Assembly (NCBI GenBank): GCA_965649765.1
Contig: OZ287757.1
Span: 9,300,001-9,364,000 of the forward strand
Reading direction: 5' to 3'
Length of the DNA: 64,000 bases
From: Bispira polyomma
Taxonomy: Eukaryota
Below the pieces are notes generated by a model. That model saw only the letters and a list, made by a program, of their open reading frames with translations, had not been told where the DNA came from and did no database searches. Numbering within the stretch: the first letter of the stretch is position 1; each line of letters begins with the position of its first letter. Below, in pieces: positions 22,124 to 47,096 of this stretch. The position numbers and the translations under genes were made by a program.

Positions 22124-22156
<33 letters not shown>

Positions 22157-22932: not shown

Positions 22933-22964
<32 letters not shown>

Positions 22965-25900: not shown

Positions 25901-28900
25901 AGGGGTATGGAATAGCTGAAAGTCAGCTGGGGTAAGTTCAGAGAGGAATGATGGAGTATCAGAACTCCTAATGTGTGTTTCTGTGATGCCGAAAATATCT
26001 ATGGAGGATGAGTCGATCAAATCGGCTATGACAGGGCTTTTATTCCGCAACGAGCGGACATTTCCAAATCCGAACTGAATTGGGCCAGGGTTACTCACAA
26101 TATCACCTGCCAGTAGGATAGTAATGAGTTTGAATGTTTTAGCCTTTGGTAGGTAATTGACTGGGCAGAATTTAGATCGAAAATAACAGTGTGTGTGGCG
26201 GGACCAGAAGTGTGGAACAGGATTGCAAGACAAATTAATGTCTTCCAGGTGGTATTGCATTGACAATGTATCAGATAATTTTAAGTCGTTGCGATAACAG
26301 AACGTAAGGAATGACAGGTACAAGATGGCAGCCCTAATGGCAAACATATTGAAAAAAAAAACAAAAAAACAATATATAGTGGTGATGGTCGATAATAGGG
26401 GATAGTTTCCAGTATAACCCCAAATTCAAAAAAAATAAAAAGTGTTGTACAAAGACTAAGCATAAAAATAGAAAAACAGTTTATATACTAACATGTGAGG
26501 ATGATTTTTAAGTAAAACAAGCCAAAACGTGGGTATAAAAAGACTAGATTAATTTAATTTTGACAATTACGAGCCGCCGCCGCCAAACCGGAAGTCTAAT
26601 TTCTCATAGTTACAAGATGTATCTCGTAATTTCAACATAGAGCTATCTCGTAATTTCAAGATAACCTTATGTTTAAATTAAGCGATAGCATTATGTTAAA
26701 ATTACAAGATTACCTTATGTTGAAATTATGAGATGTATCTTGTAATTACAACATATATCTTGTAATTACAGGATTAGCCATTCTTGTAATTTCAACATAA
26801 ATCTCGTAATTACGAGATAGCACTATCTTGTAATTACAAGATAGCATTATGTTGGAATTACAAGATAGTGTTATGTTGAAAATACGAGATAGCACTATCT
26901 TGCAATTACGAGATAATTTTTCTTGTATAACCTGTATAGGCCTCCGTAACATACAGACTTGCTAAGAAAGTAGTTTATGCTTATCCGCCATGCATGGAGT
27001 CATTATGATTCCTATATGTAAATTGGGCAAAGTGTTGACTGTGGAAATATAACTGTCAGCTCAAGTGTCTACTTTTAAAAAGTCATATGCGCTCTTATAA
27101 ACCTTCCTAATTTAACATACAGTAGATATTTGCATTGATATGTGAAGATGTTCCTGTAAATGTACAGGCGTATTAAAGCTTCAATAAGTTTATGTATAAC
27201 ATGACATATAGCAGTAATCCATTTATTCAATTATATGTAACTTTGATAATGAAAGGTAGTACATCTAATTTAGACCGCTTTGTTAATGTCATATGTCAAG
27301 ACTTCAAGAGATACAGTATCTTTGCCACCAATTTATTCAAACAGCTTTTGAATAATTGTTTTAAAAATATGTACAATGAAGAAGACTTATTAGTGAGGTC
27401 CTCAGTGGCCGAGTGGTTAGCAAGTTTGGCATCTAATCACAGGCTGTCACCTGTGTGTGGGTTCGCCTCCCACAAGTGACAAATGCTGTGGGCCTGGCTG
27501 TTGATCGAGGACGTAAAACCCTAAACATTGACTTTAGTTGTTGGGAACATAAAAGATTGAATGTTTATAAGAGATACCAGCTGTACCAATTCTAATGCAA
27601 GGGAAATCAATCATCTAATTATTTATATGTGTACTGTGTAAAGCAGATGATGTTGTTCTTTGTTGTTGTTTTTTTTTTTGTCTTCTTAATATAATGGTGT
27701 TGTATCAGTTTGGTGCCATGAGCACGATATACATGAATACATAAGTAAATTATGCTTGAGACAAAAGGACTTGAGGAAAGTCTAATCTCAACATGGGGTT
27801 TCTGTACTGGTCCTTTTGTATTTGTATTGTACAAGGACATTATGGCTTTTATCTGACCAGAGTCACGTTTACACAATCACTACGAAACCCCCCATTGACA
27901 TATAATATTTATTATACCTCGGCGGCGAATCCAGTGATCCTATTGGTTAAAATGCAATCACGTGATATAACATATTTCCCGATATGGCCCGGCAGTTGGG
28001 GGTCATATCACTGCAGCGGGCCATATCACTTGCAAAGTTTAACAAGCACCATGTGCGGTTATTTGTGTTTTCATTAAAGATTTATAGTTTAATACACAAT
28101 TAAACAACTGTAAATACATTATATTGAATTTACTGTTAAACGTCTTCTTCCACCGTGGTTAAATTGTTTATATACACATCACTGGAGTTAGGGGCGCTAC
28201 TACACCTAGCAGCTTCACGAAAATAGATGTCGGGACTAAAATTTCTGCACCCGGCCAATATGGCTTGAGGGCCGTCAGGCCCAAAAGCCATATTGTGCTG
28301 ACCAAGGGTGCATATATTCTAGTATGGCCCTCACAAACAGCTTATATTCTCTTTATTATACCGAAGCATTTTTGATTTTTAATATAGTTTTAATAAGGAA
28401 TTTTAGTCCCGATGTCTATTTTCCTCTAAATATGGTGCTGTGTGTCAGGATGCTATTTTTCACACTGACATGATATAATAAAAATTTATCAAGATTTATG
28501 ACTAAATGAGGGTGGGAAAAATCATAATATTGTCGTATAGACTTTTTTCACACAGATCATGCATAATTATATTTTCATGTCCAACATTTACAAGAATGTG
28601 TGGCCAACAACAACATTTTTTTTAAATTGACTTTTGTGTTCTTTTTAACGTTTCTCCTAAGTGTTAGTCTTATTTTCTGTTGTTAGTGAGCGTTTCCGGT
28701 ACTAGAAGCGAAAAAAATTTTTCTCAAATAATTGTATAGAAGCATAAAAATTGAAAATTGCCTGTTATACATTGGCTGGTCACCTCACCAAGTTGCCTGC
28801 ATGGAAACGCTCACTTATCCAACACTGTTTTGTGTAATTTGTATGTCATGCAGAACGATTGCATGGCATCTCTGTCCCTATTATTGGGCCTCTCCACGAT

Positions 28901-31039
28901 CAGTCTTGATAGTGGAACAGGGTCGAATCATGATCAAGTGGGAGCTTTACTTTATTAATATTACCAAGCGAGTTGTTATCTGACACAGCCTGATATTGAT
29001 CTTGTTCGGCCCAGCCTTGATGGAAATACATAACACCTTATGGATTGGTTGGAAGCAATTGACCCAATTGAACTGAGGGGTGTCAGTTTTATATTATCTG
29101 GCGATTATAACACACAGCCTGATATCGATACTTTGCTGGAAATAATATGCAAGATTGAATTAGTTGGATTCGTTGAAAGCAATCACCCAGGCCAAACTAA
29201 GGGGTGTCAGTCAGTCACACTGTAGGCTGATGTCTTTTTTTAAAGACAATTCTTGTTTATTCTTAAGTGAAACAATTCTATAACAAAACTGAGTGGGTGT
29301 TTGTTGCATGCTATACCCACATACTATGTATGTGGTCATTTCGAAACTAGATTTCAACAGATAAATATAGAAAGTGATTTATCACAATGTATGTTATTTG
29401 AATGCATGGTGATGTTTGTTATAGCCATTATTTTACTACATTAGTTCATATGACTAGTAATAATTTACTAATGTATTATAATGGTAACGTTATTAACCAT
29501 CAGTTATTATGTGATGGCATTTTAAAAGATTTTATCCTTGCGTCTTTACTTAAACTTGCACATCTACAAGGAGGCATTTATATTTTAAATATATTACCTC
29601 AAACCTAGAATCATATTTCATACAACTTATACTAAAGTCCTTACTTTATGGATGCTCATTGTTACTTTTAGCTTTTGACCTTTACCTTAACTGCATCACA
29701 CAAGTAAGGGGGGGGGGGCACTCGGTGACATAGTGGTTAATACAAATGCCTCCCACCTCTGAGGTCGTGTTTCGAATCTTGTTGGCTACAGCTTTATGTT
29801 GGAAATTTGGCAGTTAGTTGAAAGTTGGCCGATGCCAGATCATTTAGACTGCAGAATATTGACCAACTAGTATGCACTGCTTTCCCCCACCAGTAAAACT
29901 AACCTGTTGTGATACGACTTATATACAATGTGCTGAAAGCAACATTAAACCCCAAATCCATCAATCAATTAAGCGTTCTAGCCAGATACTGTTGTAATAT
30001 ACCTAACAAGTCCTCAATTTATTTTTATTGAAATAGAGTATGAATGAGTACATTGTGTGATGTCCTGTCAAAACCATCGCCTGGCATGGCCAGTTACACA
30101 CGGCAAGGAAATTTCAGAGGTGGTCAGACCAGGTATTAAATACAGTTGATATACGATTACTGCAGGTACCATGTGATATGTATATTGTCTAGAACCACCT
30201 TTCCATACCACCAATGAGAGACTTTAGGTGTGACCAGTAATATCTAAACTAGTGCAAGTTTACAGCCTCACTAAAAAAGTAACTTCTATCTGTGTGGGAA
30301 GAGCTTCCATCCCTTTTTGGTGACATCCTCGTGGAATAAACTTACACAATTGTATTGTAAATGAGTAGGCAATATGGTGTGGTCATACGTTGCCTAAGGA
30401 TGTGATGCCACCAACAAACCTAAGCAGGAGTGTAACCAGGGACCCTCCGATCACCGGACAAACTCCACCCGCCACCCCCCTACTTGGAGTTGAAATGGGG
30501 ACCCTTCTAGTCGACAGACCATCTCCCTAACCACTAGGCCACAGGAAACTCTGTGTATCAATAAAATAAAATAACAGACAACAAGCTATCCTATACATAA
30601 AACAGTTGCTGTTATATGGAGAAAAACTGTAACCCACTAACCTGAGTGACAGGTCTTTGCAATCCGCCTGTGATTTCTGTAGTTTTTGCCCAAGATCCAA
30701 GTTCTCCTGGCGAAGTTCTTCCTTTTCCTTTTCAAGCTTTTCCAAATCCAGTTTACTTTTCTTCTGGCTAGAGCTGTCTTCCACGGAAGAAAGGCTACGT
30801 TTTTTGCCACGCAAATCATCTTCCGAAGCCGATGACAAAGAGGACAAAGCCCCGCCCACTACCACTACTTTCTCTACGTCACGATCACCGTCGCACTTCT
30901 GGCTTGAGGCATCATACCACGTTTCGTCGGCTCCGTCACTGATAACTTGCTGTATCTGTGCCGATTCCCTGCTTATTATTTCGGCAGACCTTTTGATTTT
31001 ATTTTTAATATCCTGAACTGAACGCTGTTGATCATCCAT
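3072..31039 (-). CDS. Mieap/SPATA18-like (mitochondria-eating protein C-terminal domain) coiled-coil protein, paralogue A, ~437 aa; coding exons 31039-30642, 13744-13531, 8879-8781, 6856-6725, 4347-4024, 3218-3072
   Basis: All junctions GT-AG and phase compatible (2,0,0,0,0), 1314-nt uninterrupted frame. Motifs R|LSKEM..LENICVKNRPMNVSEAYQMFCSDAWLDA and ACSIVWKMVLQRPQM..YVHPVLYHGDKVMAKGRI resemble the MIEAP domain family; exon structure mirrors paralogue B. The join of exon 30642 to 13744 is inferred. Confidence 0.75.
8380..8613 (-). mobile_element. Second copy of the L2-tail SINE-like element
   Basis: Near-identical to 9930-10173 in reverse; flanked by gtggtat TSD (8373-8379/8614-8620); same 5' start GGCACCC. 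Confidence 0.8.
9337..13250 (-). mobile_element. Near full-length L2-clade non-LTR retrotransposon (APE + RT), disrupted; in intron 2 of gene A
   Basis: APE motifs (SETWL, GGGVGIF), RT motifs ([37 protein letters not shown]), C-terminal SRLDYCNSL..LHWLP..AYPP*, (AAT)n tail at ~9337-9355; in-frame TAG at 10556-10558, frameshifts, and an insertion at 9846-10173. 5' boundary approximate. Confidence 0.9.
9846..10173 (+). mobile_element. Short non-autonomous retroelement (SINE-like) with L2-derived 3' tail, inserted antisense in the L2; 5' head tandemly duplicated
   Basis: tacat TSD (9841-9845/10174-10178), (ATT)n tail, last ~110 bp homologous to the host L2 3' UTR (9340-9456); second copy at 8380-8613. 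Confidence 0.8.
14645..15615 (+). repeat. Two decayed SINE copies (14645-14855, 15385-15615); relatives at ~29715-29970, 44270-44480 and 51165-51385 (-)
   Basis: Shared tRNA-like head, atgtgg(g)aaa core and ctgttg..gtgac.taaaaccc 3' end. Confidence 0.55.
19398..21803 (-). CDS. IRF: Interferon regulatory factor (IAD1-type, IRF4/8-supergroup-like), ~561 aa; coding exons 21803-21746 and 21025-19398
   Basis: Trp-repeat DBD (RLRPWL..GLQWVD..FKVPWKH..IFKEWA..AKWKTNLRCALNK) and C-terminal IAD1/SMAD-FHA-like domain (GCRI..LLKNMHRGI..IYATRLC..KIFD). The TTG start in the ORF track is intronic: strong acceptor tttctcttatatttcag ends at 21026; the upstream exon MAWEVQGNSNMSITGHSYA-G|gtatg (acceptor at 21832) is phase-1 compatible. 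Confidence 0.95.
22491..22517. promoter_or_regulatory. Composite GAS (STAT) + NF-kB site upstream of IRF gene
   Basis: TTTCCCCGAAA at 22491-22501 (TTCN3GAA, same sequence as the mammalian IRF1 GAS core) followed 5 bp later by palindromic GGGAATTCCC(C) at 22507-22517, ~0.7 kb upstream of the IRF ATG exon in a CpG-richer patch. Confidence 0.65.
22870..22888. promoter_or_regulatory. ISRE-like element upstream of IRF gene
   Basis: AATTTCGGTTTCACGTTCG contains TTTCNNTTTC (GAAACCGAAA on the - strand) plus a partial third half-site. Confidence 0.5.
23061..26948. mobile_element. MITE with ~30-bp TIRs (TACGG..CCGTA) and internal palindromic minisatellite, split by the L2 insertion; IS3EU-like termini
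   Basis: tacggaagcctgtacaggtcatacaa (23061) is the inverted repeat of ttgtataacctgtataggcctccgta (to 26948); near-perfect 6-bp TSD acatag/acatac; repeated atctcgtaattacgagat-type units at 23130-23150 and 26597-26915. Confidence 0.7.
23150..26596 (-). mobile_element. Full-length L2-clade LINE (single ORF: leader, 2A-like motif, APE, RT), frameshifted
   Basis: ORF pieces 26347-25280, 25467-24664, 24662-24288, 24375-23722, 23706-23308 carry ITETH, YRPPG, GDFNIH, LLDLSAAFDTIDH, GVPQGSVLGP, YADDTQ, LHWLP, AFPP*; (GATTA)n tail at ~23150-23172. Confidence 0.92.
27398..27535 (+). mobile_element. Older tRNA-derived SINE (related copy at 47405-47550, - strand)
   Basis: A box TGGCCGAGTGG, B-box-like GGTTCGCCTCC, 3' gctgttga..ggacgtaaaacccta. 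Confidence 0.65.
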
Positions 31040-31273: not shown

Positions 31274-31292
31274 GAAATCGAAAGTGAAAGTA
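31274..31292. promoter_or_regulatory. ISRE/IRF-E upstream of Mieap-like gene A
   Basis: GAAATCGAAAGTGAAAGTA = three GAAA half-sites at 6-bp spacing, ~235 bp upstream of the ATG at 31039. Confidence 0.65.
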
Positions 31293-31489
31293 CTCTATAC
31301 ATAGTACTTCAAAGGAACAAAGGGGCAAGTATATATCACTGGTTGTTATTCTTTTACTTTAGGAGTGGAGTCCATTTTTGAATAACCTAAAAACCACTGT
31401 TCTGATGTGTAACGAAAGAGATAACGGTTATTAATATAAGATATATTTATAAAAAAATTATTTTTCCAATACTTCCTCCTAAGTTTTTT

Positions 31490-32640
31490 ATATAGCGCAA
31501 AATCCACATGAGTGATCAGGGTGCTGTGGATGCAGAATTTACTTTATTTTAGGTTTATGTAAAAGGTGTGTTTTTAGTTCTTTTTGAAAAATGTCCGTTG
31601 ATGGAGCATGTTGTAACTTTGAAGGTAGATTGTTCCATAGCTTAGAGGCAGCCATACTGAATGCCCAGTCTCCAGCAGAGACTAGTCTTGTTTTCCAATT
31701 GAAAAACTTCAAGCCAGTTTGATGTCTTGTTTGATAGACTGGAGTAGTGACATTCAATAGGTTTGTCAGATACCTTGGACCTTCACCTGTGAGTGCCATG
31801 AAAGCGAGTAGCAGTATTTTATATTTAATGTGTTGATGGATAGGACGCCAGTGGAGTTGGTACAGTAAAATTTTTGTTGAACATTTTTCATGATGAAATA
31901 TAAGACTAGTTGCACTTTTTTGTAAACTTTGTAACTTGAATTGGGATATTTAATGTCCACTCTAGTACCTGTTTAGGTTATATTAGGCGGGTAGTTGGAA
32001 ACGCTGGAGGAAACACTGCATACAGTTGATTAAGGTTCTGCACTGAAACCAGTGGCCCACAGTAAGGAACTACCACCTTTCCCACATAGGCATCGATGGG
32101 ATTCGAACTCACCCCACCCAGAGGTGAGAGACCAGTGATTGTGAAGCACAAGGCTTGCTAACCACTAGGCCACCGCAGTCCCCTTTTGTAACTTCTCAAA
32201 GAGTTGTGTGGAAGAACCAAAAAGCATTTTATTGCAGTAGTCCAACCTCAAAAATATACATGTACTGATGAGAGATTTGCAGGCTTCAAGTGTCAGCTAG
32301 GGGCGAATGTGATGTATTGTTCGAAGGTAATGGTAGCACGACCTAAGCAGATTGCCCATGTAAACCTGCAATAAAAACTCCTTATCAAAGTAAGTCCCAT
32401 GATTTCATACAGATGATGACTTTGGGACAAGCATTGTTTTCCACCTGGAGATGACTGAGACTTTAGAGAGTTGTTTCTTTGTGCCTATTATCACGAATTC
32501 CGTTTTGTCCTCATTTATATTGAGCTTGTTTACCCTCATCCATGACACAATTTCTAATATACGTGTCTGCATGGTGTCAATTGCAGTTTGTTGTTTAGTT
32601 GCAACATCAGGATTTCACCTAGAAATATGCAAATGAGGAC
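31490..32640 (-). mobile_element. Degenerate L2/CR1-group RT fragment, interrupted by a SINE
   Basis: LNEDKTEFVI, LGVIICMKS, PRYLTNLL..FSMAASKLWNNLP..FQKELKTHL remnants across frames. Confidence 0.65.
31938..32183 (-). mobile_element. Same tRNA-derived SINE family, full length
   Basis: Reverse complement of 63421-63665 at high identity; tttgtaactt flanks both ends as TSD. Confidence 0.88.
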
Positions 32641-32645
32641 GATTA

Positions 32646-34797
32646 AGCCTCGGTGGTGATGCCATTTTGGGAGATATTTCTTCAGTTATGATACAATGTA
32701 TATAAGGTGACATAAGGTAAGGGAGGGTAAATTTCATTAGCTAACTGATATGAACAGGCCTTTATACAGTGTATCCAGGTAGTACGACAGTTAGACATGA
32801 CTGACATCAGGTTATATAAGGTAATAGAAGGTTGGAAAGGGTAAGGCCTCAGAAGAGTTATGGCAATAAATGGTAACATCAGCTTATTCCTCTATGGTGG
32901 GAGATGGTAATCGGTTCTTCCACCACTGGGGGCGGTGCTGCAACCAGTATTTTAATGCGTGCCATTTAGAACATTGGCTCTTTCATGATTCAGCCATTAA
33001 TGTGTTCACATCATAGATGTACAACAATAAATAGACAGCCAGCTCTTCATGTTGCATTGCTACAGGGCATTATGCAGTTGAATTATATAAACCAGAGAAA
33101 CAATGTAGATATTTACAAGTACTTAAGAAGGAGGCACGTTAGAAGACAGAACCTACTGACTGCAAAATTTGGCCTCTATGAAAACCTCCTGCAGGAGTTC
33201 GAGCTTAAAGACCTGACTGTCTTTAAGAACTTTATCCGTATGGAGCCACAGCTGTTTTGTGAGCTTTTTGATCAAGTGGGGCCCCTGCTACATGCAACGG
33301 CAAAACTGTTAGGTAGTCGATGGAATGTCTACCACACTGTCGGAGCCCTAGATGGAAAGCATGTGGTTCATCAAGTGTCCCTCGAGCTTAGGGTCTCTCT
33401 ATTACAATTACAAGGAATTTTATTCTATTATCCTGCTGGCTCTGGTGGATGATGACTACAACTTGTTGTGGGCGGATGTCGGCAGTAATGGTTGTTGCTT
33501 AGATGTCCAGGTGTTTAATGACTTTGATCTGAAGGAGGTTAAAGAATATTGTACCATTGGTTTCCCAGCTGCTGATCCATTACCAGGTGATAACAAGAAC
33601 ATACCTAAAAAGAAGAAAGCCATTCTTAGCCAGACATCTCACAGATGCAGAACGCATATTTAACTACAGACTATCAAGGGCAAGGCATACAGTTAAAAAT
33701 GCTTTTGGGATTTTTTCAATCAAATTCCGATGCATCTTAACCACAATGCAACAAGTTCCACATACTGTCACCACCATTGTTCTTGCTTGTGTGGTATTGC
33801 ATAACATCATGTGGAAGAGGTACCCTATAGTCCACAGTGGCCTTCAGGATGACGAACACTCTGTTGTACCTGGGCCTGTACTCATGGCAGATTAATGGAA
33901 CGCATCAGGGGAAAATTGTGCTAGAAAACATACTCAAACAGCCCTGCTGGAAAAAAGCCTGAAATAATTACCAAATGGAAGCAATCTGTTCATTCCATAT
34001 TTATTACTTATACATTACATGTTAAATACATTTCTTACACGTCAGGTGCATCTCAACAGCCTTGTCTTCTGAGAGCTTGGCCCTTTTTTGTGTTTCTATA
34101 ATCCTTCAGGCCCTTTACATTGAGACAGGGGCTGTCTTGGACCCAGTCAATGAGCTTTTCCTTCTCATCATCTGCTAAGGGTTATTGCAAAAATAATAAT
34201 ATAGTACATTAGTTTCAATAATCCAAAATCACACACTTAACCTTTGATCCTGTGAAATGAAATGATTGTGATATGCGTTTGTATGTTATACATAGCCCAA
34301 ACTGTTACTGCCATATATGGTCACTACCTAGCACCTGTGCTTCACCACCTGTCACCTGGTGTCACCGACACACAACCGCCTCTATAACTCATCTCACCAC
34401 ATTGTTACCGCATCAATAGCCTCAGACTGTAGCTTAATGGCGTCTCCTTACCGTCTCTTACCACCTTTTACTATCTATCACTGTACTCTATCATCAGAAA
34501 ATATACCATTAACGGTTACAGATGGTTCAATGCAGCTAGAGGTGATTATATAGGGACTATTGGGCAACAGGCTGATGCGGTCAATCAACCAAAAAGGCAG
34601 TTGAATTTGAACCGTCCCTGAAGAGCCGAAATTTCATGTTAAAACCATCACCTGACACGGCTGGTTATCAATGATTAGAGATTTTTGAGTGGTACGATCT
34701 GATATTGATATAGTCGATATATGATTACCGCAGTTACCAGGTGATATGAATACTGTCCCGAGCCACCTTTCCATACCAACAATGTGAAACTGGGGCT
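32646..34797 (+). mobile_element. Decayed PIF/Harbinger DNA transposon with HARBI1-like DDE transposase pseudogene (~33000-33900)
   Basis: GALDGKH, YYNYKEFYSIILLALVD, WADVGSNG, FNYRLSRARHTVKNAFG, ACVVLHN split over three frames; short imperfect TIR (agcctcggt / actggggct) and TTA on both flanks (boundaries tentative). Confidence 0.8.
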
Positions 34798-36159
34798 TTA
34801 CATATATAAGTGTCTACAATACTATGACACTAAACATGATTTGAAATACTTTCTAAGTATGCAATTTAAGTTGAAATTTAATTCTAAAAGGTATCAACTC
34901 TTTATTTATTGGCCATTAGATTTAAATTGCTATGTCAAAAGGTTTTGAAACGTAAGAAGGTGTAAATCTGTGTATCTGTAGTCATGTGTCCTACACCAAT
35001 ATAATAATATTATATTGTGTATAAAGTGAATAATAAATGTAAAATAACTCTTGCTTTTTATATATTTAGAAAGTTACATGACCAGCAGGACACAGCGCCA
35101 AAAAGTGGAAACAAAATCCTAGAAATTGTCAAATCGTGGTTGGTGTCTCTATTCAGATGTTTCTGTTAATTTGGCTCTGTAGTGGTTGTGTATTTCCGGT
35201 GAGTTTCACCACTTAACAACAGTGGAAGTCCAAAGTAATAATAGTCTATTTTGTGAGCTTTTTCATCTTACTTTGTTTCTTCTTTTAACAAACTCTAAAA
35301 TATTTAACAAACAACAGTTGTAGTATCATATAAAATCTCAATGGTACTTTTCTTTGAGGCCTGATATAACTGGCTCTTTACTATAGATTCTGGACACTGG
35401 GCCCCGCAAATGCTGTGCTTATCTCATCTCATACCATCATATAGAATATCTTTTCTGGAGCATGTGCTGCTCCTTATATACACAAAATTGGCATGGATGC
35501 CATGAGTCACACAGAGATTACAATCTTTTGAATTCTACAGGAAAACACTGGTCAAATGATTATAGAAAATAAGTAAGATTACCATATATGGAAGTGACAT
35601 GATCAGGGATTTAGTAAGTTTAGTAAAAGTTGATGCATTGATTGTTCATCTGATCAGAACATAATATGGTACTGGGAAGGGTCATGTGTCTTATCATGTT
35701 TATATATTGTTTAATGTGAATCAGACATTCCTGTACTGGAGTGAGAGGAAGCAATAAATATTTTCAGGTAATGTGACCTCATTACAATGTTGCAAGCTCA
35801 TTCCAATAGCATCTCCACATCTTTACAAAATCTTACACAAACACATGAGAAATAGAGCTGTGTTTGAAGGACAATTAACATAAACACAACATTGATAAAA
35901 TCATATACTTGTAGACAAAAGAGAATATTTTACTGAAATATGTAAGCTTGCGTTCATTTACAAAAGTGTCTAGCTGTTGTTGTAAACCTAGATTAAAAGC
36001 CGATTTACAAATGAAGTAATTTAAGTAAACGTATATCAGGATACAAAATACTACAATTGGTTCAACATTAGGATTAATTGTATAATTACTGAAAAAATAA
36101 AACTTCTATTAATTCTACCATTTCCTTCCCTAATAATATAGTTCGCTCACAAAATTTTT

Positions 36160-36560
36160 TGGGGGTCATGAATTTTTTTTTGTGCAAATTTTATTAAATT
36201 TTTTTTTAAATTCACACTTTTACCATTTTTGGAGGCCAACTTGAATTTCTACGTTAAACACAAAAAGGCGTGCAAGGGTCATCAATTTTTTTTTTGTGCA
36301 AATTTTATTAATTTTTTTTTTAAATTCACTCTCTTACCATTTGTGGAGGCCAACTTGAATTTCTACGTTAAACACAAAAACAGTGCAAGATAGAGCGATT
36401 TTGGCACAATTTTTTGGCCCAGAGAAATCTGCACGATTTTCATAAAAATCGCTCTCCCACCATCAGAATATATTTAACGTCACACAATGTCTCACTGGGA
36501 CATTTTGTTTTTGCTGTGCAAAAACAAATTTCTTTCATTTGCTAAGCAGTACTCTAGTTT
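36160..36560. repeat. Dispersed repeat with internal ~118-bp tandem duplication; homologous to 63185-63710
   Basis: gggtcat..tgtgcaaattttatta..ggaggccaacttgaatttctacgttaaacacaaaaa occurs twice; downstream part aligns to the flanks of the SINE at 63421. Confidence 0.7.
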
Positions 36561-38083
36561 TTTATTTAAAAGTGGAAAAATAAGTTGTTAGATGTTACAT
36601 AACATTTTCTTGCACTATAATATATATGCTGGTGATACCTAACAGCCAGGGTTATCACCGAGACACTGTTCAATGGCAGAAAGGTTGCAACAATAAAATA
36701 AAATAACCCTTTTAACCCTTGTTGACACACTAAAAATTTAATTTAATTTTTCTTTGGTTCCTCGCAATCGTAAATTGTCAGTACAGCAGCTTTCACATTC
36801 AAAAAAATATTAGACATGAAGCCCTTATTGAATGTTTCAATGACCCCAGCTATGTGTAACCTATTGCCAAAAAAAATTTCTTTAGTTATCGCTTTGGGTT
36901 GTATAGGTTAATGTATTATTCCTTGGCCCAGGTCCGAACCCTCACAACACAGATCAATTGGTACAGTACTTTTTGTCATCTTTTAGCAAGAAAACTAACA
37001 TGAATTACAACAATTACACATCGCATAATTTATTATACACATTTTGTTGTTTCATTGCAGTATAAATTGTTAAACATAGAACAAAAAGGCACAAATTTAA
37101 CTTGCAGGTTTCCTGAACAGCAATCAGATTATCACATATTAAATTAACCAAAATCTGACTTGAACTGACATTAACAATAATATCAACTGAATTTAATGAA
37201 CCTGCACAATTAAATGTGTTATAAAAATGTAAAATGAGAATCCAATTTAGTTTATTAAGATAAACATAACAGCATATCAATCAATATATGCATTAGATTT
37301 TTTTTCAGGAAACAATAGCAGGTCCTAAAATATATAATAGTACATTGATGTAGCATACCCATATATGTATATTTCAGTTTAAACCCATATTCCCAAATTA
37401 ACTGTTTCATAAAACTAAGCACCATAACAAAATGAATCAGGGGGGTGGGGGGGGGGGGTTATGTTCATCCATCATAGTATTATAGTACAAGTAACAAACA
37501 AAATAAGTATTGCCAAAGAACGTATTTGTTATTGTTTTGACATTTGACACTGTACACAACTATATATTGCACATTAAGTAGTTTAATAATCGTTTGGACA
37601 CGATTCAGTATTCATAATACATAGTCAAAGTAGCATATATTCTACATAACTAAGTTAACATTTTTAACACTAATTTATAATACACATAAAGTACACCCTA
37701 TCTATTTGCGAATATTAATATTTTCTAAGTTACTCAACAAACAAAGCTCTTTATATGAATCATTTCATGACAACAGTAAGATGTTCACCAATAAGAAGAC
37801 CCGCATCAGAAGCTACATGCTATGCAGAGTAGAGCCTCTATTATCCAATCATTTATTATCCAAACATTAAGATTTAATGAACTTAATTTTAGCTCACTAT
37901 TGTATCCATTGTTTTATATTAAAAGTGCTTCATTTACTTTTTAATATATTTCTTAATATATTTTCTAATATATTTTTTTATAATGATCATTTTGTTATTC
38001 AAACTGATTATCACTCTCGCAAGGTGTTAGACTATTATTTAAGTAACTTATATCCTGAAGTCAAATTCACTCTCCAAAGATTT

Positions 38084-38087
<4 letters not shown>

Positions 38088-38131
<44 letters not shown>
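38088..38131. repeat. (TA)n microsatellite in 3' UTR of gene B (others: (TA)n ~22123-22146, poly-G 22933-22963, polyT/polyG ~55491-55532)
   Basis: Read directly. Confidence 0.95.
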
Positions 38132-38134
<3 letters not shown>

Positions 38135-38226
38135 CTATTGCTTTATAAACAACAACATTTATTTTTTTTGCAGATAATAGAGATTGTTCTAATCCCTTGT
38201 CACAGCTCATTACTCAAATCTGTATG

Positions 38227-41200
38227 TCAGTCATTCCTCAGAAGAACCTTGCCTGGGGTCTTCAGTTTATCCTCCTGCCACAGTGCCGGGTAGACATAAC
38301 AGATGACCTTGGCCCTTTCAGAGGTCGGGTTGATACTTGTCCAGTACAAATCCTGGATCTTTTCTCCTTTCCATTCCTCCCCAATCCCGTCTGTCGTAAA
38401 CCTCATGGGCGGTCTCTGGATCACCATGTTCCAAGCCAGACGGCACGCGACAGAGACGTACGACTTAAAAATGTCGGCTTCCTTGACCAAGGGCCAGCGA
38501 CTGGTGATGTGATCTTGCGAGTCCGCATGGGACGGTGATGAACATGTGCTATCTAGTTGATCAAATATACTCTGAAAATTTTTATAAAAATCCATATTGT
38601 TTATTGTACTGTTTTGACATAGTCTATGGGGGGCCGCGGTGGCCTAGTGGTTAGCAAGCATTGCGCTTCACAATCACTGGTCTGGTGCAGTGTTCAATAT
38701 AGCTAAAATCACTACAATCTATCTAACTTTTATAGCGCTTTTTCTGTGCTAGCACATTTTAAGACGCATAAGACAGAATATCATTTTGACAATTTCATAT
38801 AGCCATTGAACGTGAGGGGTCATGACCTTGGAGACACCGGAAAAAGGTAAGAAGGCTAAGGTGGAAAAGCCTTGCTGAATAGATAGGTTTTGAGCTATTT
38901 CCTGAACCAGGCAAGTGAAGAGGCAGTGTGAATATCAAATGGCAGATCATTCCACAGCTTAGAAGCATCATATGAGAAACCAAAGATGCTCAGAATGTTT
39001 TTCGGTCCCTGGGTATATTTGTTCATACATAGAATTACTAGTACCAGCACATTGCCAAATAGGTGTAATGAAGAAAAGTATAACAATAATGTAGGGGTAT
39101 GACATGGATGGACATCGTACCTTCACAATAAATGTAATGTTGCCCAATAGTCAACAAACATTGTTGCCAAAGGGTAAAAATTAATATTTATAATCAACGA
39201 ATTTGCTGGCTTATTCCGTAGAAATTTTAATCACTTGATTGCTTAGGGCACTCATTAGAGCACATTTATTCACCAAGCTACAACATTAACAGTACCCAAA
39301 AGTGAAAAATGTATTATTGCTCAGCACATGGGCAATGATTCCATCAAATATCAAGTGACTTGGTCCCGCAGGTTATTGTTATGCAGTTTTCTGTGTTGTT
39401 AAATGTAAAGCTACAGTAAAAAGCACACAAATGTTGACTAATGGGCATACAAATTAATATCATTTGGTACTGTTATGCATCATTCACTAACCTGCTCTAG
39501 CTTCACCATTGATATATTATCACTTGACCTCTTCAGGTAGTTGCTCAACTCTGTGTGTAGATTCTGGGGCAGGGATTTAACCCTCATAATGTCACCAGCA
39601 GCATTCTCTGTTACCTTTACAATAAAGGATGCATAATTTATGGTATTAGTTAAGTTTGGGTTCATTGTGTCTTGTGTCACTTTACGACAGGCAGGTCACT
39701 GTTTACGGAAATCAAAGCAGGCCCCATGTACTATATCTACATTCAGTTTTCCCATATACATGCCAGGGCCGAAATTCCAATCCACAACTGCGGAAGTTGA
39801 AGCTGAAAGTGTTACCCCTATAGCTCACAAATACTTACTACAGTAGAACCCCCATTATCCAAACATGGAAGGGTCTTCAAGGAGAACAGCCATTTTTGTG
39901 CAAAACAATAAATGAAAACAAAAATTTGGTTTGTGGAAATTAGTTCTAATATTTTGAAATGTAGTATGTTGAAAGCAATTTTAAACCCAATAGAAACTAA
40001 ACTAAACCTATAACAAAATTTGACTTTAATTCCATAAAATATCAATCAAAGTATTGTCAGCCACGTTAAAACCGGATCACGTGGAAAATCGCAACTAACC
40101 TGATACATCTGGTCAGTAAATTCAACATATGGTATAACTTACATCTCCCAGGGGATTAATAATACCATCATAAAGACCTTTAAGTGCCTTCTCCGCTTCA
40201 TCATAGGAAATCTGGAAAACATGAATATGCATAACCTAGCGGAAAGCTGTACATAATGAATGTTAAAAATCGACTTTTCATCTAAACCTAAAACGAAACT
40301 GCCAGAACAACTATATTTCCTTGTACAAATAGTGAGTGTAGGCTTAGTGGTTAAGTGTTTTTTCAGGGGTCCTTGATGTGGGAAAATTCTTGATGCAGGT
40401 CATTGATTTTTTATAGTACTAAATAGTTTCATACATAATTCTAGCTTCATCTACCAATACATGACCTTTGCCATGTAACTTTTAAGATACTGAATATATG
40501 ACTGGAAAAGTAGGTAAATTGAAACATATTTTACTGCTCTAGAATAGTGTAACTAGCAAATAAGATACAAAACTCAAATAATCAAAAGAATAATTTCGAG
40601 CAAGCAACGTTTTCCTTTTGATATAGTAAATGTAACATTGATGTGGTTATGGAGGTATAATGTAAAAAAACAAGGAATATTCCTTTAGCATGTTCTACAC
40701 CTAATTTTGAATTCCTATATCTATGTTGTCTTTGTAAATACATGTATTGTTTGGACAGTTAAATTTTGTTCCAATGACAGAAGATTTAAAATCGAAGAGA
40801 AATTTTAGTATAACAGAACAGGAAAAATTAACAATTTAGTAGAGTAGAAAATGTAAAGTAAGGGTATAACACAAGGTTGTATAACAGAGACTTCACAGTA
40901 TAAGTGGACTATATTTGATGTATTAAACTCCTCCTCCCTAATTATTTGATGTATTAAACTCCTCCTTCCTAATTATTTGATGTATTAAACTCCTCCTCCC
41001 TAATTATTTGATGTATTAAACTCCTCCTCCCTAATTATTTGATGTATTAAACTCCTCCTCCCGAATTATATTGACTCCTCCTCCTTAATTATATTGACCG
41101 ATTTCAGGCAGAGTAAGAAATATCTAAATAGTGACTGATATTAGATAATGATATCATAATGTAGTTAGTAATGTAATGTAAAATTCATTTTCACATACTG

Positions 41201-44200
41201 TTCAGCATCCACACATTATATGGATATATTACTTGTTTTATGTACATTTCCATTTTTTTTGCATTTTTCAAACATTTTTTTACAACCCAATATATATGAA
41301 CATCACTTTCATTAATAATAGTCCCTCTTTAGAGCCTTGAGCTAGATGTGAACACGCAATCACCTGCTTGTGATGACCCTTGCCTGTCTCTTTCGGAGAA
41401 CCAGCTTTGGAGGATGTGTATCAATAGAGCACTGTGTAAATGCTTCGCTAAAACTAATAATAAGCCTGGCTTACCAAGATGATGTCACACAAAAGTCTGA
41501 GGTTATCAGCTTCCCCCTCACTTAACCGGTCCACGGTTTCCTTGGCTTCTTGCCATTGGTCAGAACACAGCTGCAGGTAGTCATCCTTAATCCTCATTGG
41601 CCGGTTCTTGATGTTGACGTTCTCAATGGTACTCTCACGTGCGGATACCTTGGCATCCATCTCATGGGAAAGTCTGTAATGATAGGATATGATATTATAG
41701 AGTTTTGACATGCATAATCAATGCCAGGCATCTTCTAAAGAGCAACATCATTCACAGAGTTTTTAAAATTGTAATCCGTTTCCAGCGCAAATTCGTGATC
41801 CAACGTGCTGCAACAGAGAAGGCATAGGATCCAATGGGTTTACTGGTTCTGATATAAGAGACTAAAACATTGTAACACTGACACCATAAGTTTTCCATAT
41901 GTGTTACCTTAAGTAAGTTACAATAGACACTCTATTATCCAAACTTTTGTTATCTGAATATACTACTTCTGGAATACACTTTCATACGAATTTTGACCCT
42001 CTTAAAACATGGTCTCTTAAAACATAACCTTACCTCATTGTCAAGTCCTTCACTTGTTCATCCAGCCGTCCACTTCTCCGTTCTTCACTTTCGAGAGCAC
42101 CCTCCGACTGCTTCAATAGTTGCTCTAGTTGAGACTTCTCCATCACGGCGTGTTCAAGAAGGTCTTGCAGCCGGCTTATTTTACCTTCTATTCCTTTTCG
42201 GTTGTCTGCCAGTTCCACTGCTTTTAGAGGCTTCCCTAAGGTGGTCGACATTTCCTTCATACGATCTTCTAAGCTGTCATCTAATTTGAGCATGGCATTC
42301 TTTTGTTCTTTCATTTCTTTCTCCATCTTATTGTTCTCCAACTGTAGCCTTTCCATATCTTGCTGTAAGCGCTCAATATGTCTGCCCTTCTCTGTATTCT
42401 CTTTCTTCAGTGCTTCTACTTTTTCACCCAGATCCTCCAAGTCTTTGACATGTTTGTCTCCTTTCTGCTCTTCTTCCTCCTGACTTCCTTGCATGTTTTC
42501 TTCTAACGACATCCCACCTACAGTATGTAACAATATATTGATAACAATTAATATATACAAATATATATACATAATTCAAACAATATGTTGTAATAGGAAA
42601 TTGGAAAATGAAATGTCTAGGTGTACACCATTTTTACAGTAAAATCTAATGTCACTGATTTATTGGTATTCTTTATTATTATAACAACATGAACCAGATT
42701 ATTTGTCAGCCAACGGAATAAGAAAATGAAGCAATGGATCCACTCAATCAAATGCAGGAATGAAATGCAATTCTAAGCATTAATGTTGTTACAAAATTCA
42801 AGGAAAATATCAATCAATATAAATATATGGTTTTCAGATCGCACCCGAAGAAGTTGCGGTTTATAACTTTCTGGAACAAAATGTCACTTCTGGATTGGTG
42901 GTGCACCAACTTCCACTAAAAAGGTCACGATCAGTGGTTCATATAATACAGCATTATAGCCTGGGAAAATACATGTATCATTGATTGTTTCAATAGTTTC
43001 ATTTTGATATCAAAGCAGCAAAGTAACGATTAATATTGAAATACCGTCCCAGTACCGCCCTAAGACCGTCCTATTTGTTGGTGCCATTTTCACACCCAAA
43101 TAATAATAAACTATAAAGTACTTAAGTTATATCTAACATTTGTGTGGATATATTGTTTACAGTGCTATTGTAAAAACATAAATGGATCCAACTTGCGATA
43201 TTTTAAATTGATTTTAAATTTTTCTTTAGAGAGCTTTGTAAATGTATTTTTTGACAAATTTTTAATCTTAAGCTGAAAAACAAAAACATGAAATTACTAA
43301 TGTATATGTAATATATTAATGTTCAGTATGCACAGAATGTTCATAGGAATACAGTCACATAACTCACATTTCAAGTTTAATGTTGCTGGTCTTGATATAA
43401 CCCCTGGACGCTGTTTCAAATTGGCCACAGTGTCAACATCGCCCGATTAAAAGCCGATTTTACTTACCTCTAATTGCAAGTGTCTCCTGTTCTGCACGGA
43501 ACTCCTCCGTGATAGAGTCAACTTTCAAATCACTCCCTGTTGTTTTGTGTGTCACCGGACTATTTCTGCCACCCTTTGACTCTGTGTCCACAGGTTCTTC
43601 ATCTTTACTGTTGTTAGAATACAAGTTTGTTTTATTTAAAAATAAGTTTACATTACAATTACATGTATTTATTTCATACGTACGTAGATAATGCAAATAC
43701 ATACAAACTAAAATAAGCATTTGAATCTGTCAAGCAAATTAGCCAGAAAACACATGAAACACAAATATAAGACCAAATATTGTCACAAATAGGCTTGACA
43801 GTCTGATAGCTAAAAAAACCAAAGGTTTTTCATATGGCATTGTATATTATAGACACATACAGAATACAACAACATCACACTTTACATGTATAATGTTAAC
43901 AGAAAATAAGAAACATTATATAAACCACAGAAACAACCTCTTTTAGTAGCTATCGGTCCATTGTAGCCAATCTATTGTTTTATTAATAATTATTAAGAAC
44001 AAAATAACAAAAAACAATATCCTTATAAGATTAAATGATATCCAATAGTTTAATACAGACATCTTGAAAAAAATATGAGGAGTGACATTGTTTGGAATTT
44101 TATTTGATATTTCTTCATCTTCTATATACAATTTTCCTAAATAATACCAGTGAGCTCAATATAAGCAATCTTTTGATTGTTATAAAAAGGTCATACCGAG

Positions 44201-44649
44201 TAAAATTTCACATAATGTAAAACTATGTATACTTGTATACTTTGTGTATGTTCTTGTTAATTGAGACACTTGGCACTGCAATAATCACTCATAATCACAG
44301 GCCTCTCACCAATGTGGGTTTCGATACCAGTTACTTCGTTCATGTTGGAAAAATTTTGTCAGGTACTTGCCATAGGATGGTGCTTTACGGTGGCTTCAGT
44401 CCTGGTTTACGCCACCATTAAATCTGGCAATCTTGATATAACCTAAGCTGTTGAACGTGACGTGAAACCCAACTAAATTCAAGTTATTACTTACACGAAT
44501 TGCTGCTCCTTCTTTTGCTCATTTGCTGAATCCATCCCTGTTTGGGCATGTTCCTCATTTGCATCTGGTTTTCCCATGCCTGGCAGTTTCTGAGGTGTGG
44601 TCCTGTTATTAATGGCTGCTCTTTGAGTAAAAGACCCTGGCTCTGCCAT
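38227..44649 (-). CDS. Mieap/SPATA18-like coiled-coil protein, paralogue B, ~504 aa; coding exons 44649-44495, 43607-43468, 42517-42034, 41673-41475, 40211-40143, 39614-39492, 38571-38227
   Basis: GT-AG junctions with phases 2,1,2,0,0,0 give a 1515-nt open frame; long heptad-rich coiled coil, then R|LSHEM..IENVNIKNRPMRIKDDYLQLCSDQWQEA and ACRLAWNMVIQRPPM..YVYPALWQEDKLKTPGKV, homologous to paralogue A. Confidence 0.8.
38628..38683 (+). mobile_element. 5' fragment of the same SINE
   Basis: ggccgcggtggcctagtggttagcaagcattgcgcttcacaatcactggtct is almost identical to the 63421 head. Confidence 0.8.
38710..39090 (-). mobile_element. Degenerate L2 3' fragment in last intron of gene B
   Basis: FSYDASKLWNDLP..FRK..KAFPP-type end and L2-like 3' UTR. 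Confidence 0.65.
40913..41098. repeat. Minisatellite, 31-bp unit x5 plus degenerate copies
   Basis: Unit atttgatgtattaaactcctcctccctaatt read directly. Confidence 0.9.
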
Positions 44650-46092
44650 TGTTGAAATGTGTGAGTTTTATTGTTATAAAAACTGCGAACTTTTACCATT
44701 TATCCAGCCCAGACTTCCTCCTTGAGAAAATGAAAATATACCACCATTTGTGTATCCACCAAGGATATTTTATGGCTGACAAACCTATAAAAAGCATCAT
44801 TCACCCAAGTGACTTGGCTATAGCTGTCATCAGTGAACGAAGTGAACCAGTCACAGATATATAGTTATGTCACAAGGATGTGTAATCCTTAATATTTTAT
44901 CAAACAGTTTAATATAACCTTTTCATTATGCAACATTTAACCAATACATTTAGATTGTTACTTATACAACTATTTTATTGTGCGAAAGTTTTTATTTCAA
45001 GCTATGAACCAATGAAACACTCCTTTTTTTTCTTTTTTGGGGGGTGGGGGATGAGGGGGTGGGTGGTGGTGGGGTGGGGGGGTGGGGGGTTATATCCTAT
45101 TTTAGCCTCATGTGCTCATACCACAAGAGAACCTTATTCTAGTCATAAAACCTTTGTAATAATAATAACATTGGTGTTATCACATTTAAGTTGAAATATT
45201 TGTAGGCTCCACTCGATGAGTGGAGATACCGGTTATGTGTCATTTAATTATTAGTGACATATATGCCCTACTAGATCTTCACCCATCGAGTGGGCGAGTG
45301 AAAAACACCGAGAAATATAGCTTTCTGTACATTAAGGTAGTTATTTTTACTGTCATGTAATATATATATCTAATAGGAAATTACCCGAGTGACGCATTTT
45401 ATTTAATTTTATCTCAAGAGAAGACAAATCAATATCGTCCCAGTCTGTAGGACTCGGGATTTATTTATTTACTATAACAATATTGAAACAACCCAAAACT
45501 TTATATAGTCTTTTGTTTATATATCAAAACTTTCCATTATGACGTCACAATGCAAATCTGAAAGCTAAGAACATTAGAGTTTTTACCATAAATAACTAAC
45601 TTAAAACATGTAATTAGACACGTCTTAAAACCGAGTTTGTTAAACCAAAACATTTTTTAAGGTTGATATTTCATATTCGCCATACTTTTTAGCAACTTTC
45701 TGTGTTAAATATTGCCTAAAATTGATACTAAAAAAGCCTCAGAAACGTACAGTTTTCATATACACATTTACGGGCGCCGGTACATACAAAAAAATAGATT
45801 GCCTAGTGTGTCTTCTCCTCTGTATGATCCGTATACGTGACCAAGTGGATAATAAATATATGTATCCTGAGAAACACACCCACTATCAAACTTCTACCTC
45901 TGTATTCTTTTGCCACATACGAGTGTCTGAATTCTATATAACTGATTTGTATGGATGGTAATAAACTCCAAGATGTCCAATATGCACACAAAACAGGTTC
46001 TGTACACAAGTTTGGGTAAAGGGAATCAATACACACACAGTACTTACAAAAAATATTATAGTAGCATACATCGACTATTGTGTTTACAGGCA

Positions 46093-46110
46093 AAATCGAA
46101 AGTGAAAGTA
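46093..46110. promoter_or_regulatory. ISRE/IRF-E upstream of Mieap-like gene B
   Basis: AAATCGAAAGTGAAAGTA, identical over 18 bp to 31275-31292; ~1.3 kb upstream of the ATG-containing exon (acceptor at 44785), where a non-coding first exon is expected. Confidence 0.6.
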
Positions 46111-46293
46111 GTGATATTATATTTTAGTGCTCAAATAAATTCCCTTTTGTGTTTCTTCTTCGCCAATCAAAGGAAATAGCGTATTTTTTAACAATCAGTT
46201 TCAGTATCTCGGTCAAATTTATCAGCAATACATTTTAGTGAAATATAAATTCAAATTAGTAAAAATTGACAAACGCGAGTTTTTTCCCCACAA

Positions 46294-47096
46294 CATCAGC
46301 TGACAAAGTATGCAACCTGGGCGTGTTGTTTGACTCTGAATTCTCCTTCTCCAACCATGTTGCATCCGTGTGTAGATCATGTTTTGTTGGCCTCCGTGAT
46401 TTCAGGCGAATTAGACGTTATCTAACCAAATCCACTGCAATCACTGTTGCCAACGCCTTGGTCAGCAGTAGGCTTGATTACTGCAACTCTCTGTTCCGTT
46501 CCCTATCTTGTAGTGACCTCAAACGTCTTCAGAACGTTCAACACTCATTGGCTCGCATCGTGGCCAAAACTTGTAAATTTTCTCATATTACTCCTGTACT
46601 TAATTCACTCCACTGGCTCCCAATAAAATATCGTGTTGCTTTCAAAATTGCAACAATTATATACAAATTTCTAAATTCTGGATCACCCACCTATTTCAGC
46701 CCCCATCTATCCAAATATACATGCTCAGTCAGGACTAGGCGCAGTAACCCTGATATGTTATATCTTAACATTCCCACTTTCGACCCTCGCATCCACAAAT
46801 CCAAAGTACATTTCAATCATTGCCTTGCTCATGATGGCCCCTTCATATGGAACAGCCTGCCTGATCATGTTCGCTTGGCTCAAACTTTCTCCTCTTTTAG
46901 GAGTAAACTGAAGGCCTACCTTTTCGAACAGGCCTTTCCACCTTAGCCATCGCAACCATCCCGGTAGTCTCTCTGGTTATGACCACCATCCGTCCCCCAT
47001 TTCTGATTTTTTGATTAATGCTTAGGTCAGTTGCGCCTTAGAATTTGTTGTACAAAGATTAAGTGCTATAAAAGTACGATTAGATTAGATTAGATT
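46294..47096 (+). mobile_element. 5'-truncated L2 copy, same family as 23150-26596
   Basis: ADKVCNLGV..SRLDYCNSL..LHWLP..AFPP* nearly identical to 23308-23960; (GATTA)n tail. Confidence 0.9.

What the first reader, a model, noticed from the sequence alone, without database searches (positions are those of the whole stretch)
31274..46110. Identical 18-bp ISRE retained upstream of two highly diverged paralogues
Seen: AAATCGAAAGTGAAAGTA at 31275-31292 and 46093-46110 in the same orientation, although I see no alignable flanking DNA and the N-terminal exons differ. Established: GAAAGTGAAAGT matches the IRF1/2 IRF-E consensus and also the PRDM1/Blimp-1 site. Inference: purifying selection on a functional element; the B copy could also serve the divergent kinase gene.
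Basis: partly seen in the sequence, partly recalled or inferred. Interest (0 to 1): 0.7.

Follow-up and report, generated by a model that had tools for sequence, protein, structure and literature searches.

The report
Antiviral switch shared by MIEAP genes
The repeated 18 letters are one case of a DNA signal found in front of about half of the copies of a large, poorly understood gene family in this invertebrate (probably a mollusc); the signal is likely read by antiviral IRF transcription factors, which would make the family part of the infection response rather than only of stress repair.

Summary
Observation confirmed. The 18-mer is exact at 31275-31292 and 46093-46110 and occurs only twice in the 1.035-Gb genome. 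Its flanks do not align, and it is not a repeat. It lies upstream of two intact MIEAP-domain (PF16026) paralogues.

It is not pair-specific. 16 of 32 paralogues examined, on two chromosomes, carry the 17-bp consensus AAANYGAAASYGAAASY within 20 kb upstream of a conserved exon (19 sites, 0.44 expected). 17 of the 19 share one orientation, and 6 of 171 site pairs match exactly over 18 bp or more. The A/B identity is therefore the family consensus plus chance.

The layout (AANNGAAA plus tandem GAAA) fits IRF better than Blimp-1, but Blimp-1 co-binding is not excluded. The viperin gene carries two such sites. An intact IRF8-like gene, probably a retrocopy, is nested in gene A's first intron. Shared use by the kinase gene is weakly supported: that gene is a frameshifted kinase-MIEAP paralogue 5.9 kb away, behind a LINE fragment.

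No RNA data were available, so start sites, binding and induction are untested. The element is a known kind. What is new is that an expanded MIEAP family looks IRF-controlled; two bivalve pathogens also carry the domain.

The parts
31275..31292 (+). IRF-E/ISRE-type site A (17-bp family core 31275-31291 plus one A); GAAA strand antisense to gene A; 235 bp upstream of the gene A ATG
46093..46110 (+). IRF-E/ISRE-type site B; antisense to gene B; about 1.44 kb upstream of the modelled gene B ATG. A 5'-UTR intron is inferred from an acceptor-like sequence near 44720
3072..31039 (-). Gene A: acidic/coiled-coil N-terminus plus MIEAP domain, 437 aa. Modelled exons 31039-30642, 13744-13531, 8879-8781, 6856-6725, 4347-4024, 3218-3072
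   Evidence: Pfam PF16026; in-silico model, all AG/GT, no internal stop; no RNA
38227..44649 (-). Gene B: low-complexity N-terminus, coiled coil, MIEAP domain, 504 aa. Modelled exons 44649-44495, 43607-43468, 42517-42034, 41673-41475, 40211-40143, 39614-39492, 38571-38227
   Evidence: Pfam; in-silico model; no RNA
19398..21803 (-). Intact IRF8-like gene (561 aa, DNA-binding domain plus IAD), nested in modelled intron 1 of gene A. Exons 21803-21746 and 21025-19398. The DNA-binding domain has no intron, unlike its closest paralogue on C4: likely a retrocopy
22491..22881 (.). Candidate promoter sites of the nested IRF: GAS-type TTTCCCCGAAA 22491-22501, kB-type palindrome GGGAATTCCC 22507-22516, ISRE-like TTTCGGTTTC 22872-22881
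   Evidence: sequence; consensus matches only
46263..46946 (+). LINE reverse-transcriptase fragment directly beside site B on the kinase side (90% identical to the copy at 23294-23957)
52001..59401 (+). Gene C (part): kinase exons followed by coiled-coil exons, apparently continuing to MIEAP exons at C10:9378486 and 9379970 beyond the window. A third paralogue, with a frameshift in the first kinase exon near 52190
   Evidence: the frameshifted stretch lies on a gap-free short-read contig; linkage of kinase and MIEAP exons inferred

Best explanation
The 18-mer is one instance of a 17-bp element, AAANYGAAASYGAAASY, that lies upstream of about half of the examined copies of an expanded MIEAP-domain gene family; it is likely an IRF-binding promoter element inherited from the family's ancestor, and would switch these genes on with the animal's antiviral programme. 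Shown: the recurrence, the sharp 17-bp boundary, the orientation bias, the association with first coding exons, and IRF genes in the genome. Inferred: two or three IRF DNA-binding domains occupy the tandem AANNGAAA/GAAA half-sites near the start site; selection keeps only those bases while the flanks and N-terminal exons diverge; A and B match over 18 bp because both sit at the consensus. Untested: which IRF binds, and whether expression is induced or basal. A feedback role for the nested IRF is speculation.
For: Enrichment: 19 sites upstream of 16 of 32 paralogues against 0.44 expected from the genome-wide count of 849 (P 4e-22 without A and B). Strict 17-mer: 13 of the genome's 127 copies lie in 864 kb of cluster DNA, expected 0.11. 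The AA-extended pattern occurs 0 times in 200 kb of random DNA; spacer-altered controls occur once each in the clusters. Two positions that the search did not fix are invariant in 19 of 19 (A before AA, pyrimidine before GAAA), while flanks look random. 17 of 19 sites are antisense to the gene. 9 of 19 have an ATG-opened frame of 150 codons or more starting within 1 kb, against 13.9% of random positions (P 5e-4); CpG o/e median 0.66 against 0.44 (P 0.004). Carriers are spread over deep branches and two chromosomes. Positive controls: the viperin gene has two GAAAGTGAAAGT 25 bp apart, about 2.9 kb upstream of its first coding exon, in the same orientation; the C4 IRF8-like gene has an upstream ISRE and a GBP gene has an intronic site. 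Three other MIEAP-type loci (C1:65.4, C1:77.7, C5:42.8 Mb) have no listed site within 400 kb. IRFs recognise AANNGAAA (PMC7819612, passages). Oyster IRF2 and IRF8 are induced by poly(I:C) and activate ISRE reporters (PMC5557890, passages).
Against: No RNA holder was listed, so start sites, exon joins and induction are unverified. 16 of 32 paralogues have no strict site in the 5-20 kb scanned. 10 of 19 sites have no long ATG frame within 1 kb, site B among them, and three have CpG o/e under 0.25. No IRF-E 12-mer was found in 180 kb over five RLR genes, though their 5' ends were probably not reached. Of 40 sampled non-MIEAP site loci only one had a Pfam-recognised immune neighbour (GBP) within 5 kb (76 of 134 ORFs scanned, 12 of them again). 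8 of 42 sites there can be read as coding Glu-Asn-Glu-Ser-type frames, so the genome-wide excess is partly coding. 18 of 19 family sites are Blimp-1-competent by the human G/N or N/G rule. Paralogues are related, so the orientation P value is optimistic.
Confidence: 0.72

Rival explanations
1. The site is IRF-bound but drives basal or tissue-specific (gill, haemocyte) expression rather than an infection-induced response.
For: IRF1 gives constitutive defence through IRF-E sites (PMC7819612, passages). MIEAP annotations are over-represented in unchallenged mussel gill (PMC5549309, passages), and a host MIEAP protein is well covered in a mussel proteome table (PMC11521996 supplement). Those may be the canonical gene.
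Against: The same site type stands at viperin, GBP and an IRF gene; oyster IRFs are dsRNA- and virus-induced. This rival does not conflict with IRF binding.
Confidence: 0.13
2. The conserved factor is PRDM1/Blimp-1, a repressor, alone or competing with IRF.
For: A and B are G/G sites that contain AAGTGAAAGT. Family N1/N3 bases are GG 10, GC 6, CG 2, CC 1, and only C/C excludes human BLIMP1 (PMC2938208 and bioRxiv 10.64898/2026.06.15.732353, passages).
Against: The invariant 5' AAANY half-site is an IRF contact that BLIMP1 does not need. 7 of 19 family sites, and 61 of the 100 listed genome-wide strict sites (counted by hand), end in GAAAC. The base after the core is free. A Blimp-1 gene was not searched for in this genome.
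Confidence: 0.09
3. The exact identity reflects something special to A and B, such as recent gene conversion or an extra pair-specific constraint.
For: The 18-mer occurs only twice in the genome; the two genes are neighbours; the T at position 4 is a minority base (3 of 19).
Against: There is no flank similarity. A and B are not supported sisters. 6 of 171 pairs share 18 bp or more, including B with a gene 27 Mb away, against 2.8% expected.
Confidence: 0.03
4. The match is chance, part of a repeat, or coding sequence.
For: The motif can read Glu-Asn-Glu-Ser-Glu-Ser, and several one-mismatch hits lie inside long ORFs.
Against: Sites A and B are non-coding and single-copy. The 25 near-matches share no flanks except one 24-bp pair. 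Enrichment at paralogues is 28- to 120-fold.
Confidence: 0.02

Closest known systems
Vertebrate IRF-E / ISRE promoter elements (IRF1/2 sites; PMC7819612, passages)
   Same: AANNGAAA core and tandem GAAA half-sites with a 2-bp spacer; upstream position; also present at this genome's viperin, GBP and IRF genes.
   Different: Invertebrate host (interferon homologues are vertebrate-only); the target family is not one I know as interferon-stimulated (recalled; no linking paper); binding untested.
Overlapping BLIMP1/IRF-E sites (PMC2938208; bioRxiv 10.64898/2026.06.15.732353, passages)
   Same: Sites A and B are G/G variants that contain the BLIMP1 core.
   Different: The family tolerates C at the BLIMP1-critical positions and conserves a 5' half-site that only IRF needs.
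Bivalve MIEAP expansion, orthogroup OG24 (PMC8382680, passages)
   Same: Dozens of PF16026 genes per genome (53.1 per bivalve against 0.6 in others; at least 36 last-exon matches here).
   Different: That paper reads the expansion as stress and mitochondrial quality control and the passages seen mention no IRF element. Membership of this subfamily in OG24 was not tested.
Oyster IRF2/IRF8 pathway (PMC5557890, passages)
   Same: IRF8-like and IRF1/2-like genes are present in this genome.
   Different: Oyster IRFs were tested on mammalian reporters; here a native family-wide site is read from the genome.

Membership tests
IRF-E/ISRE | Two or more GAAA cores with a 2-bp spacer and a 5' AA (AANNGAAA) | tested here: met
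   definition from PMC7819612
IRF-E/ISRE | Non-random, outside repeats and coding sequence | tested here: met
IRF-E/ISRE | Located at promoters or start sites | tested here: inconclusive
   Proxy only: 9 of 19 near an ATG-opened long frame and raised CpG; no RNA
IRF-E/ISRE | Cognate IRF with DNA-contact residues in the genome | tested here: met
   11 PF00605 exon matches at about seven genes; nested IRF keeps the Trp repeat and R-C-x-x-N; C6 gene of IRF1/2 type by eye
IRF-E/ISRE | Same element at known antiviral genes of the organism | tested here: inconclusive
   Present at viperin, GBP and the C4 IRF; absent from the fetched parts of five RLR genes
IRF-E/ISRE | Bound by IRF and confers inducibility | not testable with these tools
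   Needs EMSA, reporter assays or challenge RNA-seq
PRDM1/Blimp-1 site | G at N1 and/or N3 (GTGAAAG core) | tested here: met
   A and B are G/G; 18 of 19 family sites have at least one G
PRDM1/Blimp-1 site | Constraint limited to the BLIMP1 footprint, with G required | tested here: not met
   5' AAANY half-site conserved; C at N3 in 7 of 19
MIEAP-domain proteins (PF16026) | Pfam match above the gathering score | tested here: met
   Last MIEAP exons of A (30.5 bits) and B (36.2 bits), cut-off 27; Atlas 0.96
Bivalve OG24 / SPATA18 orthologue | Phylogenetic placement with OG24 or SPATA18 | not tested
   No named close homologue found; the best Pfam match in the genome is another gene, C5:42.8 Mb

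The most novel reading that the evidence does not exclude
The expanded invertebrate MIEAP-domain family is an unrecognised class of IRF-driven antimicrobial effectors, a lophotrochozoan counterpart of interferon-stimulated genes: a conserved MIEAP core with freely swapped N-termini (kinase, coiled coil, possible myristoylation signal). An oyster nidovirus and an intranuclear mussel parasite captured the domain as mimics, and this locus carries its own nested IRF as a local feedback loop.
Probability: 0.35. Interest if true: 0.8.

Novelty: new member of a known kind. Interest (0 to 1): 0.58.

Why it matters
Bivalves carry about 50 MIEAP-domain genes each, and the expansion has been explained as an adaptation to physical stress (PMC8382680). 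A conserved IRF-type site in front of half of the copies here would move much of the family into innate immunity. It supplies a native invertebrate IRF consensus and a natural experiment: site-bearing against site-less paralogues in one genome. The idea is directly testable in existing oyster poly(I:C) data. It would also give a reason why two bivalve pathogens carry the domain.

Tried and rejected
- RNA evidence: no RNA holder listed. The three runs behave as genomic contigs of one study and showed no differences at either site, so they give no polymorphism test.
- Flank alignment of A and B: nothing above shuffles.
- Repeat origin: rejected.
- Genome-wide excess as proof of a regulon: not accepted, because part of it is coding and the reversed control of this periodic motif is not independent.
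- Neighbours of 40 non-MIEAP site loci: mostly uninformative (Atlas lead under 0.9).
- RLR control: inconclusive; the 5' ends were not obtained.
- Oyster challenge data: no MIEAP label in 5 supplementary files of PMC7064767 or 9 of PMC6182001. The PMC7064767 table uses CGI ids, and no oyster homologue with such an id was found, so induction was not tested.
- No related genomes are held for cross-species footprinting.
- The paralogue tree is poorly resolved (5 of 26 inner branches starred), so retention against repeated gain is not settled.
- No structure or complex prediction was run.

Full report
OBSERVATION. The 18-mer AAATCGAAAGTGAAAGTA is exact at 31275-31292 and 46093-46110 on the + strand; with up to 3 mismatches allowed these are the only two matches in the window. 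The 1.035-Gb genome holds only these two exact copies, and none of the reversed control. Short-read contigs from three DNA runs of one study cover both sites with no difference. The flanks do not align: for 100 and 400 bp on each side, 16-100% of shuffles score as high.

THE GENES. Both sites lie upstream of minus-strand genes whose last conserved exon matches MIEAP (PF16026) above the cut-off. In-silico splicing with canonical AG/GT gives intact proteins of 437 aa (A, ATG 235 bp from the site) and 504 aa (B, ATG about 1.44 kb from the site, probably behind a 5'-UTR intron). No RNA holder was listed, so these are models. A's 16.9-kb first intron holds an intact 561-aa IRF gene on the same strand. 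Its best named hits are mollusc IRF8-like proteins, 45-65% identical over mostly the DNA-binding domain, so the animal is probably a mollusc; I did not identify it further. The divergent kinase gene begins at 52001 behind a splice acceptor, has a frameshift near 52190 that a gap-free contig confirms, and appears to run on into MIEAP exons beyond the window.

THE SITE IS FAMILY-WIDE. B's last exon finds 38 matches in the genome, clustered on C10 and C3. I fetched 780 kb of these clusters and added the 64-kb window and 200 kb of spread background. Loci on C5 (86 Mb), C3 (93 and 100 Mb) and C10 (29.8 Mb) were not fetched. The pattern AANNGAAASYGAAASY occurs 849 times in the genome, which predicts 0.71 in the cluster DNA; 20 were found, and none in the background. 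The stricter AAANCGAAASYGAAASY occurs 127 times against 28 for the control; 13 lie in the clusters against 0.11 expected (P 4e-19 without A and B).

Per gene, 16 of 32 paralogues have a site within 5-20 kb upstream of the conserved MIEAP exon: 19 sites against 0.44 expected, and 17 of 19 have the GAAA strand antisense to the gene, like A and B. Two further paralogues checked later gave one more antisense site and one blank. Conservation is sharply bounded at 17 bp. Two positions left free by the search are invariant: A before the AA, and a pyrimidine before the first GAAA, each 19 of 19. 6 of 171 pairs share 18-20 identical bases, and a column-independent model expects 2.8%.

On a tree of 29 paralogues (three genes with split or duplicate exons left out; one labelled on the 12-mer alone) carriers are spread over long branches. 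The label needs 6 changes against 9.8 shuffled, and A and B are not supported sisters. This fits ancestral presence with losses, but the tree is too weak to exclude repeated gain.

PROMOTER ASSOCIATION (proxy). 9 of 19 sites have an ATG-opened frame of 150 codons or more starting within 1 kb on the gene strand, against 13.9% of random positions in the same regions (P 5e-4). Local CpG o/e is 0.66 against 0.44 (P 0.004). Three sites have CpG under 0.25 and may be chance.

WHICH FACTOR. IRFs recognise AANNGAAA, and an ISRE has two or more GAAA repeats (PMC7819612, passages). The element reads as three half-sites, xAAANY-GAAASY-GAAASY. Human BLIMP1 overlaps such sites and is excluded only when both critical G are C (PMC2938208 and bioRxiv 10.64898/2026.06.15.732353, passages). 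By that rule 18 of 19 family sites, A and B included, could bind it. But the invariant 5' half-site, C at the last critical position in 7 of 19 family sites and in 61 of the 100 listed genome-wide sites (hand count), and the free 3' base point to IRF as the conserving factor. Oyster IRF2 and IRF8 are poly(I:C)-induced and activate ISRE reporters (PMC5557890, passages), and this genome has about seven IRF genes.

CONTROLS. For the reading: viperin has two GAAAGTGAAAGT 25 bp apart, about 2.9 kb upstream of its first coding exon and in the same orientation; the C4 IRF8-like gene has an upstream ISRE and a GBP gene an intronic site; three MIEAP-type loci outside this subfamily have no listed site within 400 kb. 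Against or unclear: no 12-mer in 180 kb over five RLR genes whose 5' ends were probably not reached. Among the first 40 listed strict-site loci outside the clusters and not already held, only GBP was a Pfam-recognised immune neighbour (76 of 134 ORFs scanned, 14 proteins), and 8 of 42 sites sit in open frames that read as Glu-Asn-Glu-Ser. The genome-wide excess is thus partly coding and does not by itself show a regulon.

KINASE SHARING. Site B is 5.9 kb from the kinase ATG with a LINE fragment directly between. It would be in the family's minority orientation for gene C (2 of 19 sites), and most of C's clade lacks the site. Sharing is not excluded, because C's first exon is unknown.

COMPARISON AND NOVELTY. 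The element is a known kind. The bivalve MIEAP expansion is known and was read as stress and mitophagy related (PMC8382680, passages). Seven full-text searches returned no paper that, by listing or by the passages read, links MIEAP-domain genes to IRF or ISRE control; subscription journals are not covered. Supplements of two oyster challenge studies carry no MIEAP label, so induction there is untested rather than absent. Independent hints of a host-pathogen role: an oyster nidovirus encodes a MIEAP homologue (PMC11848433, passage), and a profile of this family's last exon hits two proteins of an intranuclear mussel parasite as well as Aplysia, Octopus, scallop, Dreissena and amphioxus proteins. 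Earlier AI notes on oyster HSPA12 and clam IFI44 report similar elements; I did not test them.

VERDICT. A real, constrained, family-wide IRF-type element (confidence about 0.85 for IRF binding, 0.72 including an antiviral or infection-linked role). It is a new member of a known kind, and of moderate interest because it points to an immune function for a large unexplained gene expansion and makes that directly testable.

Noticed in passing
window 19398-22881: Intact IRF8-like gene nested in gene A intron 1. Its DNA-binding domain is intronless, whereas the closest paralogue (C4:65.115-65.119 Mb, 69% and 78% identical exons) is split there: probably a retrocopy. Upstream lie adjacent GAS-type and kB-type sites and an ISRE-like site; another IRF paralogue (C1:23.69 Mb) also has adjacent GAS and kB sites.
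   Followed up: partly
window 52001-59401 and G000:C10:9378486-9380266: Apparent kinase-coiled coil-MIEAP fusion gene with a frameshift near 52190 that is present in a short-read contig. A partial duplicate of the kinase exon end follows at 52685-52816, and doubled depth hints at a close kinase paralogue elsewhere.
   Followed up: partly
P0090, P0186 (MDP0588198.1, MDP0588199.1): Two proteins with consecutive locus tags of 'Ca. Endonucleobacter bathymodioli', an intranuclear parasite of mussels, carry repeated MIEAP domains. PMC11521996 does not mention MIEAP in its main text; in its supplements the two rows seen (of three hits) are host proteins, file 2 was unreadable and file 4 was cut. The oyster nidovirus CGNV also encodes a MIEAP homologue (PMC11848433, passage). 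Host contamination of the bin was not excluded.
   Followed up: partly
L207 (G000:C3:9588448-9588484): Viperin gene with two GAAAGTGAAAGT sites 25 bp apart, about 2.9 kb upstream of its first coding exon.
   Followed up: yes
L147 (C2:96079504) and C3:33380611: HSPA12-like coding sequence (recognised by eye, no Pfam hit) shortly downstream of IRF-type sites; an earlier AI note reports the same in oyster.
   Followed up: no
G000:C1:21.60-21.61 and 23.69 Mb; C4:56.44 Mb: Further divergent IRF paralogues: about seven IRF genes in all, several with long uninterrupted exons.
   Followed up: no
L140 (C1:79273061/127), L146, C8:65459996/65460062, C6:34.38-34.40 Mb: Paired or tandemly repeated strict sites away from MIEAP genes: candidate IRF targets with no gene identified.
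   Followed up: no
window 58451-58533 and 59319-59401; 40912-41100; 26601-26938; 32970-33895: Tandemly duplicated coiled-coil exon in gene C; a 31-bp minisatellite in a gene B intron; a degenerate palindromic array; a decayed DDE_Tnp_4 transposase upstream of gene A.
   Followed up: no
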